From Clostridiaceae bacterium (GTDB taxonomy: Bacteria > Bacillota > Clostridia > Clostridiales > Clostridiaceae): DNA of 48,079 bases. A model generated the notes under the pieces. That model did no database searches and was not told the origin of the DNA. It saw nothing but the letters and a program-made list of their open reading frames with translations. Below, one piece after another: positions 10,653 through 30,018 of the stretch. Both the position numbers and the translations under genes were made by a program. Where the stretch lies: contig JASDTM010000116.1 in the NCBI GenBank assembly GCA_041891535.1, positions 9,473 through 57,551 of the forward strand. Direction: 5' to 3'. Each line of letters starts with the position of its first letter. Position 1 is the first letter of the stretch.

Positions 10653-11489
10653 ATGGAGAAAATCAGAGCAGTTGTCCATGAGACGGTTTGCCCGATACAG
10701 CTTAAAAGTATTGTAGAAGGTGAAATGGCTGATGAGGCTGTATATGGAATGACAGTTACTATAGTGGATTATGAGGGTGAGTTTGCCTTTGTGGAAACTG
10801 ACTATGACTATAAGGGATATATTTTAAAGGACTATCTGGAAACAGATCCTGATAAGGTAAAGACCTGGGAAAATTCAGAAAAAAGTGTTGTATGGCATTC
10901 TTTTGCTGACTGCCAGCATGAGCCAAGCTATAAAACCTGGCCTGTGGCGAAGGTTGTACGGGGCTCCTATGTTGTTTTAACAGGCAAAACTGAAGGAGAC
11001 TGGTCAGAGGTTAAGCTGGTCAATGGCGAAAACGCCTGGATAAAATCAGAGTATGTAAGACCAATTAAAAAGGTGTCTGATTATGGCAATGAGGTTGAGC
11101 TGAGAAATGCTCTTGTTGATACAGCAATCCTTTATCTTGATACACAGTACAGATGGGGTGGCAGAAGTCCACTTGGAGTTGACTGCTCAGGCTTATGCTC
11201 CATGTCCTATCTTTTAAACGGAATCAAAATATACAGGGATGCACATTTAAAACCGGAATATATGGATGAAATAACACTTGAAGAAGCCAAGCCCGGAGAT
11301 TTATTATTCTTCCCGGGTCATGTTGCAATGTACCTTGGAAGCTTAAGATACATTCATTCATCATCCTCTGTATCAGGGGTAAAATTTGGAAGCCTTAATC
11401 CTGAGGACTTAAATTACAGCCAGAAGCTCCATGATACCTTGGAGGCTTGTGGCACTGTATTCAAGGGAGACAGGTTGAAATGGAAATAA
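10653..11489 (+). CDS. ykfC: NlpC/P60 (C40) peptidase with SH3-like domains, YkfC-like gamma-D-Glu-diamino acid endopeptidase
   Basis: YRWGG..GVDCSG, RDA, GHVAMY, IHSS; GDWSEVKL..AWI SH3b-like segment; no signal peptide; adjacent to the epimerase. Confidence 0.8.
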   Translation: MEKIRAVVHETVCPIQLKSIVEGEMADEAVYGMTVTIVDYEGEFAFVETDYDYKGYILKDYLETDPDKVKTWENSEKSVVWHSFADCQHEPSYKTWPVAKVVRGSYVVLTGKTEGDWSEVKLVNGENAWIKSEYVRPIKKVSDYGNEVELRNALVDTAILYLDTQYRWGGRSPLGVDCSGLCSMSYLLNGIKIYRDAHLKPEYMDEITLEEAKPGDLLFFPGHVAMYLGSLRYIHSSSSVSGVKFGSLNPEDLNYSQKLHDTLEACGTVFKGDRLKWK

Positions 11490-15766: not shown

Positions 15767-17092
15767 TTACTTATATAGTGATTTAAAATTTACTTCAAAG
15801 ATATTTTCGTTTTTGACTCTTCCATTAATAATGTCATTCATATATTCCAAGGTTCTTAAGCCCTGTCCGTATTTTTCCCAGAGCTTATAGCCCTCTTCAT
15901 TCTTGATATCCTTGGAAACTGTGTCTCCCCTTCCCTGGAAGTAGGTAAGGTTTAATCTCGCAGCAATTTCAGTCATCTTGTCCAGCTCCTCATCTGGTAT
16001 ATCAATATCCTGGTTTAAAAGCTGCTTTATTGTTCTGTTTACTGAGGTTTTCAAGAAGAACTGACTTGAATAATTTTGAAAATCAAGAAGGTTTGCATCC
16101 TGTGATCCAAGCTTTTTAGCGAAGCCTGCAACATCAATCATCTTTGTATAGTACTTAAAATCATCATCCTTACTTATCTGGATTACGGCATAGCTGTTGT
16201 CTGCCACAGCCATGGAGCCAGTATCTATTTCAATCATTCCCGTGTCATTGTCAGATACATCCTGTACATGTATATGGCCGGAGAGGTTGATATAGGTCTT
16301 TCCACGCTGGAGTATATTTAAGGCTTCCTCAGAATTATTAACCTTATATCCATCAACGATTCTGTTGTTATGGGTCAATAAATTCTGATGGGTTGAGCTG
16401 ATAAGCTTTATTCCTTTTTTGGTGGCAGAATCAATAACCTCGTTAAGCCATTTTGTGGTAGAGGTTGACATGGTATCAGGGCTGTCGGCAGTATTGACAT
16501 CTATCATGACAAGCCATAAGCCATCATTCAGCTCTGTTACATAGGAAAAGCTCCCGGGATCCTTCATAGTGGATTCATCATATCCAAAATCCTTATACAA
16601 ATTCTTGAACTCTTCGTCCGTAACAGAATCTGTGTAATATGCCTTCTCACCTTCAAAGGAATAGGCAAATGGGATTCTTATATCATGGTTACCAGGTATG
16701 ACGGACACCTTTATACCTGATTCTTCAACCTTTTTAAGCTTTGATGCAAGATCCTCATGGCTTGCCAATTCCCCATTGTAGGTAAGGTCACCGGTAAGCA
16801 CCAGAAAATCTGGCTTTTGGTCAATGACCTCTTCAATAAAAGCATTTGTTATCTCCGGTGTATAATGGGTAACCTTGCCATCACCCTTTTCAGTGACCTT
16901 CATTATTGATGCACCCTTATCCATTATCCTTGGAGAAATAAAATGAAGATCCGTTGCAGTGATTATTTTGACTCCTGAATCCATGGTCCAGACTGATTTC
17001 TCATTTGCTTTCGCATCTATTGCCACAGTTGAAAAACAGCCTGTAAGCACAAAAATTGCCGAAAAAAATATCGGCAAAATCTTTTTGAACAT
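15767..17092 (-). CDS. Calcineurin-like metallophosphoesterase, lipoprotein
   Basis: Lipobox LTGC; TDLH, TGDL, PGNHD, THQN and SGHIH motifs. Confidence 0.85.
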   Translation of the reverse strand: MFKKILPIFFSAIFVLTGCFSTVAIDAKANEKSVWTMDSGVKIITATDLHFISPRIMDKGASIMKVTEKGDGKVTHYTPEITNAFIEEVIDQKPDFLVLTGDLTYNGELASHEDLASKLKKVEESGIKVSVIPGNHDIRIPFAYSFEGEKAYYTDSVTDEEFKNLYKDFGYDESTMKDPGSFSYVTELNDGLWLVMIDVNTADSPDTMSTSTTKWLNEVIDSATKKGIKLISSTHQNLLTHNNRIVDGYKVNNSEEALNILQRGKTYINLSGHIHVQDVSDNDTGMIEIDTGSMAVADNSYAVIQISKDDDFKYYTKMIDVAGFAKKLGSQDANLLDFQNYSSQFFLKTSVNRTIKQLLNQDIDIPDEELDKMTEIAARLNLTYFQGRGDTVSKDIKNEEGYKLWEKYGQGLRTLEYMNDIINGRVKNENIFEVNFKSLYK

Positions 17093-19655: not shown

Positions 19656-19711
19656 AAGTTGGGAATAACAAATCTTGTAAATAATAATTATTATCGATTA
19701 TCCTTAGAAAG

Positions 19712-19720
19712 TGGTATAAT
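19712..19720 (+). promoter_or_regulatory. Extended -10 promoter for the small ORF at 19750
   Basis: TG-G-TATAAT about 30 nt upstream of ATG 19750. Confidence 0.6.
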
Positions 19721-19749
19721 ATACCTGTATTAAGAAAAGGGTGATAAAA

Positions 19750-19884
19750 ATGTTGGAAAAGCTTAAGAAAAAACTGAATGATAAAATTGAGAAGATGGCT
19801 AAGAATAACGAAAAGAGATATGCAGGAACTCAACCTTCCTGATGCTCAGTCAACAGGCAGGTGCCTGGAAAATCGAATAAATAG
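19750..19884 (+). CDS. Putative 44-aa selenoprotein MLEKLKKKLNDKIEKMAKNNEKRYAGTQPS(U)CSVNRQVPGKSNK
   Basis: SD AAGGGTGAT; in-frame TGA 19840-19842 directly followed by TGC; SECIS-like hairpin at +11; TAG at 19882-19884 followed by a terminator. Confidence 0.7.
19854..19867 (+). promoter_or_regulatory. Candidate bacterial SECIS element
   Basis: CAGGC-AGGT-GCCTG begins after an 11-nt spacer following the TGA and has a G-containing apical loop. Confidence 0.6.
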
Positions 19885-19892
19885 CCTTGAAT

Positions 19893-19932
19893 AAAAATTT
19901 CCATCCTAAATTTATTTTAGGGTGGATTTTTT
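19893..19932 (+). terminator. Intrinsic terminator after the small ORF
   Basis: TCCATCCTAAA-TTTAT-TTTAGGGTGGA followed by TTTTTT. Confidence 0.8.
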
Positions 19933-29951: not shown

Positions 29952-30018
29952 ATTGAAATATGATCTTTGAGGTGTTAGGATAAGCTTGAGATTTAAAAGA
30001 AAAAGAGAGGGAATCTAG

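What the first reader, a model, noticed from the sequence alone, without database searches (positions are those of the whole stretch)
19750..19884. Hidden small selenoprotein gene: in-frame UGA in a S-U-C motif with a SECIS-like hairpin at +11
Seen: a complete transcription unit missed by the ORF track. It has an extended -10, SD AAGGGTGAT, ATG 19750, 30 codons of Lys-rich helix-like sequence, then TCC-TGA-TGC, 13 sense codons after the TGA up to TAG 19882, and a terminator immediately afterwards. The hairpin CAGGC-AGGT-GCCTG starts after an 11-nt spacer. Established: the E. coli fdhF SECIS minihelix lies 11 nt after UGA and contains GCAGGU at its apex. From memory (unverified), the peptide resembles small Firmicute proteins with the pattern 'KLAKxNEKxFG..LDCC', so the TGA would align with the first Cys of a CC pair. 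Inference: a 44-aa Sec-Cys protein of unknown redox or metal-binding function.
Basis: partly seen in the sequence, partly recalled or inferred. Interest (0 to 1): 0.85.

Follow-up and report, generated by a model that had tools for sequence, protein, structure and literature searches.

The report
Recent selenium form of LDCC peptide
A tiny bacterial gene has a UGA stop codon exactly where its relatives have an invariant cysteine, and two related species keep the reading frame and a hairpin behind it, so the UGA is likely read as selenocysteine, giving a selenium form of a putative copper-binding peptide that the selenoprotein lists checked do not include.

Summary
ORF 19750-19884 belongs to NCBIfam NF040898 (LDCC putative metal-binding protein; 34.2 bits, cut-off 30). 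Its TGA aligns with the first Cys of a C-C pair present in all 265 listed homologues. It is no sequencing error: contigs from six other studies hold it. A congener (G002, 98% complete, with selA and tRNA-Sec) has the syntenic orthologue with the same TGA and hairpin, 12 synonymous against 1 non-synonymous codon change, and 3:0 after the TGA. The nearest Cys-form relative (G001) lacks the hairpin, so UGA and SECIS likely arose together. This 83%-complete genome shows no selABCD, but contig ends bracket the gap where G002 has them, and it keeps five UGA selenoprotein genes. The UGA form was found in only these two species. Family context (csoR/copper ATPases in 18 of 41 loci; fusions to a CopZ-fold domain lacking CxxC) points to soft-metal binding; here the gene stands alone behind a Fur-type box. 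Selenium incorporation and function are untested. The scan earlier noted LDCC-like CxxU forms in Desulfobacterota (not checked by me); this U-C form differs. Verdict: likely real, narrow, recent Cys-to-Sec variant.

The parts
19682..19696 (.). Fur-family-type 7-1-7 inverted repeat over the expected -35 region; likely a repressor site
   Evidence: 12 of 14 to the 7-1-7 core of the Fur box (19-bp box and 7-1-7 view in PMC11353095). Also 12 of 14 in G001 and G002, while none of the other 35 upstream regions scored exceeds 10. One of 39 sites at 12 or more in the genome; feoA-like gene has two 13/14 sites. Which regulator binds is untested.
19712..19720 (+). Extended -10 promoter element TG-n-TATAAT
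   Evidence: Seen in sequence; kept in G001 and G002; not listed by the scanner
19737..19745 (+). Shine-Dalgarno-like sequence
   Evidence: Seen in sequence; related purine-rich stretch in G001 and G002
19750..19884 (+). 44-codon gene, NF040898 (LDCC) family member with U31-C32
   Evidence: syntenic orthologue in G002; stored in databases as a 30-aa protein cut at the UGA
19840..19842 (+). In-frame TGA, likely selenocysteine 31, aligned with the first Cys of the invariant C-C pair
   Evidence: same TGA in G002 and in contigs of six other studies
19854..19867 (+). SECIS-like hairpin, 5-bp stem and AGGU loop, 11 nt after the UGA, inside codons 35-39
   Evidence: identical in G002, absent in the Cys-form relative G001 (pair probabilities 0.0); fits the four constraints of the bacterial SECIS model (PMC13188914 Fig. 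2 legend), two at the margin
19900..19932 (+). Intrinsic terminator-like hairpin and T run
   Evidence: hairpin plus T run kept with changed sequence in G002 and G001

Best explanation
This is a stand-alone 44-codon gene of the LDCC family whose in-frame UGA is likely recoded to selenocysteine by SelB bound to the hairpin 11 bases downstream, giving a peptide predicted to be one amphipathic helix followed by a Sec-Cys pair that would bind Cu(I) or a similar soft metal. Shown: ORF anatomy, family membership, alignment of the TGA with an invariant Cys, purifying selection on both sides of the TGA, the hairpin in the UGA forms and not in the nearest Cys form, and Sec machinery in the sister species. 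Inferred: SelB-dependent insertion (about 0.85); a single recent Cys-to-Sec change with the hairpin built from substitutions in codons 35-40 (about 0.8); soft-metal binding, as a small cytoplasmic buffer or a hand-over partner of HMA domains of CopA or CopZ (about 0.5); repression by a Fur-family protein (about 0.5). When selenium is short, translation would stop at the UGA and give a 30-residue helix with no metal ligand.
For: NF040898 34.2 bits over cut-off 30. C-C present in 28 of 28 aligned Cys homologues, 120 of 120 listed database homologues and 145 of 145 further representatives. G002 orthologue in a syntenic locus: 9 synonymous and 1 non-synonymous codon changes before the TGA, 3 and 0 after it, no indel, same stop; chance that three random tail changes are all synonymous 0.011-0.021; both flanks carry indels. 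G001 forms a supported clade with the two UGA forms (97/89) among Cys forms, has TGC there and no hairpin. G002 has selA (612 bits), tRNA-Sec (65.5 bits) and selB- and selD-like ORFs recognised by sequence; selA is in 7 of 8 congeners. In this genome contigs C155 and C84 end at the two borders of the 30-kb block that holds them in G002, and grdA, two grdB, prdB and fdhA carry in-frame TGA at their Sec positions. A GG(U/A) starts at +18 or +19 in four of those five genes and at +18 here. Function: csoR-like or copper-ATPase genes within about 1.5 kb in 18 of 41 family loci; 7 of the 150 listed representatives are LDCC peptides fused behind a domain without CxxC that matches CopA metal-binding domains (E 1.5e-8) and folds like CopZ (rmsd 1.3 A); helix 2-24 at pLDDT about 90.
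Against: No selA, selB, selD or tRNA-Sec in this assembly. Only two species carry the UGA: 2 of 80 matching genomes among 389 of the family, none new among 399 of the class, and the pattern scans of GTDB and JGI metagenomes added only G002 and two chance hits. With two identical hairpins there is no covariation, and five unchanged hairpin codons are not significant alone (P about 0.095). The tail test rests on three substitutions. The hairpin is at the lower spacing limit and passes the energy limit only in context. T is the commonest base after true TGA stops here (84 of 162), so termination would compete. The family's Asp before C-C is Ser here. This copy is not in a copper operon: the genome's csoR and copA lie 42 bases apart on C161 with no LDCC gene between them. 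The 41 loci are kin-rich, so 18 of 41 overstates independence. No expression or metal-binding data.
Confidence: 0.8

Rival explanations
1. The TGA is a true stop fixed in the ancestor of two close species; the gene makes a 30-residue helix or is decaying, and the tail is left over.
For: Only two species have it. One base separates TGC from TGA. Databases call a 30-aa product. No sel genes in this assembly. The tail test rests on three changes.
Against: Synonymous divergence in six neighbouring genes is about 0.375 per codon and their amino-acid divergence 7.6%, yet this gene changed 1 of 43 residues and none in the tail. No listed homologue lacks the C-C pair. The hairpin is absent from the nearest Cys form and sits at SECIS spacing.
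Confidence: 0.1
2. The recoding is real but the peptide serves iron or peroxide stress rather than copper: a Fur- or PerR-controlled gene whose vicinal Sec-Cys pair cycles as a selenyl-sulfide or binds iron.
For: A Fur-type box over the promoter is shared by G000, G001 and G002 and by no other scored homologue. The gene has left the csoR-copA operon. Cys-to-Sec changes are mostly seen at redox-active Cys (PMC1794560 passages).
Against: Family context and fusions point to copper. No redox fold: one helix and a flexible tail. The box is one of 39 such sites in an AT-rich genome. C-C and C-U pairs are read as heavy-metal sites in the SAO system (bioRxiv 10.1101/2022.07.06.499078 section 29).
Confidence: 0.3
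3. The UGA is read through at low level by a near-cognate tRNA (Trp or Cys), without selenium.
For: Would also keep the tail under selection; tRNA-Trp(CCA) is present.
Against: Does not explain a new hairpin at SECIS spacing. TGA ends 162 of 1,143 long ORFs, so the code is standard. Trp would remove an invariant ligand.
Confidence: 0.04
4. The TGA is a sequencing or assembly error.
For: The genome is an incomplete assembly (82.8%).
Against: Same TGA in G002 and no change listed there in contigs of runs X2, X4, X5, X8, X10, X11 and X12, six studies other than the possible source.
Confidence: 0.01

Closest known systems
NCBIfam NF040898 CC_mini_metal, 'LDCC motif putative metal-binding protein'
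   Same: Passes the cut-off when U is written as C; same length, basic N-terminal helix, N-x3-aromatic-small motif, C-C-x-x-N.
   Different: First Cys codon is TGA with a SECIS-like hairpin; P-S-U-C instead of L-D-C-C; stand-alone behind a Fur-type box. None of the source names shown mentions selenium, and the family is absent from the 119-family table of PMC13188914.
Bacterial SelB/SECIS-decoded selenoprotein genes (E. coli fdhF archetype, recalled; this genome's fdhA, grdA, grdB, prdB)
   Same: In-frame UGA at a conserved Cys, hairpin in the coding region, G-G-U at +18 to +20.
   Different: No bulged U, 5-bp stem, loop one base nearer than in fdhA and grdB; very small gene; only two species.
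Small vicinal-Cys/Sec selenoproteins: SaoC (NF040734), KCU-star (NF033934), Csac_0668 CopZ-family forms (C-U and GxUC), CC/Se motif family (NF041239)
   Same: Sec next to Cys, read as a heavy-metal site (table of PMC13188914; bioRxiv 10.1101/2022.07.06.499078 section 29).
   Different: None of these models matched the peptide at E up to 0.1; NF040898 was the only hit.
CopZ / HMA-domain copper chaperones and the csoR-copA operon
   Same: Family members sit in these operons and some are fused to a CopZ-fold domain.
   Different: The peptide itself has no HMA fold and no CxxC; it may work like the ligand loop of a chaperone but is not one.
LDCC-like CxxU selenoproteins of Desulfobacterota
   Same: By those notes, the same or a related family has also acquired Sec.
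   Different: CxxU there, U-C here; another phylum; would be an independent origin.

Membership tests
NF040898 LDCC family | Score above the curated cut-off (30 bits) | tested here: met
   34.2 bits with C written for U; 21.6 bits when the TGA is scored as a stop
NF040898 LDCC family | Vicinal C-C pair followed by x-x-N | tested here: met
   U31-C32-x-x-N35 aligns with invariant columns; met only if the TGA is recoded
NF040898 LDCC family | L-D before the pair (name-giving, not invariant) | tested here: not met
   P-S here; 7 of 120 listed homologues also lack the Asp; G001 has P-D
NF040898 LDCC family | Small protein with a basic N-terminal helix | tested here: met
   44 aa, predicted helix 2-24
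NF040898 LDCC family | Metal binding | not testable with these tools
   Putative for the whole family; only context and fusions
Bacterial selenoprotein gene | In-frame UGA aligned with conserved Cys of homologues | tested here: met
Bacterial selenoprotein gene | Coding conservation beyond the UGA | tested here: met
   3 synonymous, 0 non-synonymous, no indel against G002, P 0.011-0.021; tail homologous to G001
Bacterial selenoprotein gene | SECIS: stem 4-16 bp, loop 3-9 nt, G in first two loop bases, 16-37 nt to the loop, MFE at most -7.5 | tested here: met
   5 bp, 4 nt, G second, 16 nt, -8.4 in context but -6.8 isolated; two criteria at the margin
Bacterial selenoprotein gene | Covariation in the SECIS stem | tested here: inconclusive
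   Only two alleles with a readable hairpin, identical there
Bacterial selenoprotein gene | selA, selB, selC, selD in the same genome | tested here: inconclusive
   Not found in the 82.8%-complete assembly; gap at the syntenic place; five other UGA genes; present in G002
Bacterial selenoprotein gene | Selenium found in the product | not testable with these tools
   Needs 75Se labelling or mass spectrometry
CopZ/HMA copper chaperone | Ferredoxin-like HMA fold with CxxC | tested here: not met
   Single helix, no Pfam hit; not filed here
SaoC, KCU-star, CC/Se motif and other catalogued vicinal Cys/Sec families | Match to their NCBIfam models | tested here: not met
   Only NF040898 matched at E up to 0.1

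The most novel reading that the evidence does not exclude
A selenoprotein caught just after its birth: in one small clade a metal-ligand Cys of a 44-residue peptide became Sec while a working SECIS was written into five downstream codons, with a living Cys-form sister for comparison. The LDCC peptide would be a detachable metal-ligand module for HMA domains that has taken up selenium more than once (U-C here, CxxU in Desulfobacterota by unchecked earlier notes), making it a tiny Sec-based soft-metal carrier whose length is switched by selenium supply.
Probability: 0.35. Interest if true: 0.7.

Novelty: new variant of a known kind. Interest (0 to 1): 0.52.

Why it matters
It adds a family to the bacterial selenoproteome that gene callers cut to 30 residues and that the lists checked do not hold. 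More usefully, it is a close Cys/Sec pair in which the codon change and the hairpin-forming substitutions can be listed one by one, so the open question of how a UGA and its SECIS arise together inside a coding sequence can be tested with a few reporter constructs. It also gives the uncharacterised LDCC family its first functional leads here: copper-operon context and fusion to a CopZ-fold domain that lacks its own cysteines. Limits: two species, no experiment, known mechanism.

Tried and rejected
Own-genome searches for SelA, SelB, SelD and tRNA-Sec gave nothing over cut-off; ARAGORN found 23 tRNAs, none Sec, and the tRNA-Ser(tga) in this contig reads UCA and is unrelated. More UGA alleles: one protein search returned only the 30-aa truncated product; U-C pattern scans gave G002 plus two chance hits with in-frame stops; the Cys version of that pattern finds 34 of 39 Cys loci, so some forms could be missed, and C-U forms were covered only by the profile searches of sampled genomes. 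A 197-base contig in run X2 is a third allele (Gly before the codon, longer tail) with 8 of its 14 differences listed; the third base of codon 31 and the hairpin lie too near its end to read, so it counts neither way. No RNA holder listed; run X20 laid nothing. No Rfam match, no Pfam match, no meaningful PDB sequence match for the family. My first hairpin background used an isolated-energy limit of -7.5 that the target itself misses; I re-ran it at -6.8; the count of 0 of 36 Cys homologues comes from the stricter limit. A binding prediction between an LDCC peptide and a CopA metal-binding domain was not available, and no language-model look-alike search was obtained, so both questions stay open. 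The 'ldcC motif' paper concerns an unrelated RNA. Alternative genetic code rejected. The tree has only 49 columns and is used for one supported clade only.

Full report
1. Observation. Everything described is at the stated coordinates: ATG 19750, TGA 19840-19842 as codon 31, 13 further sense codons, TAG 19882-19884, an 11-base spacer and the hairpin CAGGC-AGGT-GCCTG at 19854-19867. A terminator-like stem with T run follows at 19900-19932. The extended -10 and SD are visible by eye and kept in two congeners. The gene lies between a glycoside hydrolase family 3 gene and a cupin gene on the same strand; no terminator was found upstream, so some transcription from the upstream operon is possible. 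The hairpin alone is only modestly unusual (13 of 200 and 3 of 200 shuffles; 9 of 5,981 sampled TGA triplets at matched stability, spacing and loop; 276 of 78,410 under a looser rule).

2. Family. With C written for U the peptide scores 34.2 bits against NF040898 (cut-off 30), its only NCBIfam match at E up to 0.1. In an alignment with 28 Cys homologues and the G002 orthologue the invariant columns are N20, C31, C32 and N35, so the TGA sits on an invariant Cys and a family-invariant residue lies beyond it. All 120 listed database homologues (of 151 found) and all 145 further representatives (from the best 150 of 519) have the C-C pair. Databases hold this gene and the G002 gene as 30-residue proteins ending at the UGA.

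3. Not an error. Contigs of runs X2, X4, X5, X8, X10, X11 and X12, from six studies other than the possible source, cover the codon with no change listed. The holders are soil, bioreactor, digester, sludge and wastewater metagenomes. G002, labelled a Clostridiaceae bacterium in its record title, is another species of the same genus.

4. Selection. G002 has the orthologue in a syntenic block (neighbours 80-98% identical). Across the gene 12 codons differ synonymously and one non-synonymously; after the TGA three differ, all synonymously, with no indel and the same stop, while both flanks carry indels. Three random tail changes would all be synonymous with probability 0.011-0.021. Six neighbouring genes show 37.5% synonymous change and 7.6% amino-acid change over 2,100 codons. 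The five hairpin codons are unchanged, which alone is not significant (0.095).

5. Direction and origin. G001, the closest Cys form (64% identical), shares the promoter and upstream box, has TGC at codon 31 and no hairpin. The two UGA forms and G001 form a supported clade (97/89) with Cys forms outside (49 columns only, midpoint root). Comparing tails codon by codon, the hairpin region differs from G001 by synonymous changes at codons 35, 37, 39 and 40 and by K-to-R at 36 and H-to-V at 38. By the logic used in PMC1794560 (passages) this is one Cys-to-Sec conversion; that G001 shows the ancestral tail is inferred. The UGA form is rare: 2 of 80 matching genomes among 389 scored in the family (12 not scored), none new among 390 of the order or 399 of the class, and GTDB-wide and metagenome pattern scans added only G002 and two chance hits.

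6. Sec machinery. None of selA, selB, selD or tRNA-Sec is in this assembly (82.8% complete). This is the strongest result against. However, selA is in 7 of 8 congeners. G002 holds selA, tRNA-Sec and selB- and selD-like ORFs (recognised by sequence) in one cluster, and this genome's contigs C155 and C84 stop at G002 positions 16,653 and 46,712, on either side of that cluster; housekeeping-type genes in the block are missing too. The genome keeps grdA (257.8 bits, one TGA), two grdB, prdB and fdhA with in-frame TGA; the last four were recognised by recalled motifs. G001 (81% complete) likewise lacks selA and tRNA-Sec in its assembly but has a TGA-containing grdA, so its Cys form probably lives in a Sec user.

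7. SECIS. The hairpin meets the four constraints of the bacterial model (PMC13188914 section 5), spacing and energy at the margin. G-G-(U/A) starts at +19 in fdhA and both grdB, +18 in grdA and here, +14 in prdB. No covariation can be shown.

8. Likely function. The model is one helix (2-24, pLDDT about 90) and a low-confidence tail. Of 41 family loci of up to 3 kb, 18 hold a csoR-like or copper-ATPase gene (families checked for 24 chosen neighbours), often as csoR-LDCC-copA; these loci are kin-rich. Seven of the 150 listed representatives carry the LDCC peptide behind a 70-residue domain without CxxC whose profile matches CopA and ATP7 metal-binding domains and whose model matches B. subtilis CopZ (E 5.8e-4, rmsd 1.3 A). 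This suggests that the peptide supplies a soft-metal ligand pair to HMA domains. In this clade the gene has left the copper operon and sits behind a Fur-type 7-1-7 box over the -35 region, shared only with G001 and G002 among 38 scored upstream regions. I commit to: SelB-dependent Sec insertion (0.85), product a soft-metal, most likely Cu(I), buffer or carrier (0.5), with an iron or peroxide-stress role as main rival (0.3). Binding to a partner was not modelled.

9. What is known. NF040898 and 'LDCC' do not occur in the 119-family table of PMC13188914 (sections 5 and parts 1-2 of 3 of section 7 read, plus term search), in the main text or the one held spreadsheet of BSepDB PMC13326102 (term searches only; the store of supplements gave no answer), in deep-Sep PMC12013277 (term search) or in bioRxiv 10.1101/2022.07.06.499078 (term search and section 29; supplements not available). 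Full-text searches for the family found nothing relevant (PMC5737381 passages concern an unrelated RNA). Haft and Tolstoy 2025 is not held; I saw only the families that the review's table lists. PMC11353095 and PMC1794560 were seen as passages. RefSeq and the BSepDB database itself could not be queried, so absence from print is limited to these searches.

10. Verdict. Observation confirmed, interpretation supported. Likely a real, narrowly spread, recent Sec variant of a known putative metal-binding family, decoded by a known mechanism. New variant of a known kind; interest 0.52.

Noticed in passing
L081:3787-4554 (G000 contig C14, TGA at 29954-29956) and L083 (G002): A PrdR-like sigma-54 activator gene near prdB has an in-frame TGA in C-R-D-TGA-D, kept in G002 (95% identical over 255 residues), followed by a 6-bp hairpin with an AGG loop. 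The TGA does not obviously align with a Cys; three other congeners match only downstream of it. Candidate Sec in a regulator, or a shared truncation.
   Followed up: partly
Proteins P0198, P0208, P0223, P0240, P0252, P0254, P0259: LDCC peptide fused behind a CopZ-fold domain that has lost its CxxC; apparently unnamed.
   Followed up: partly
window 19682-19696: Fur-type 7-1-7 box over the -35 region, kept in G001 although the flanking genes there differ.
   Followed up: partly
window 19780-19872, run X2 record 3: A third, more distant allele with Gly before codon 31 and a longer tail; codon 31 third base and hairpin not readable from the table.
   Followed up: partly
window 19823-19845: A second predicted hairpin encloses the TGA itself in G000 and G002; listed as a minus-strand terminator-like site. 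Role unknown.
   Followed up: no
G000 contig C126, TGA at 10931: Formate dehydrogenase alpha-like gene with R-L-TGA-H and an fdhF-type SECIS after an 11-base spacer.
   Followed up: partly
G000 contigs C155 and C84: Contig ends bracket a 30-kb block missing from this assembly that in G002 holds the sel cluster and a second grdA/grdB set.
   Followed up: yes
L016, L044, L045, L048, L049: A second family context: LDCC gene directly behind a sensor histidine kinase, in two loci ahead of small membrane proteins and a His-rich copper-type ATPase.
   Followed up: no
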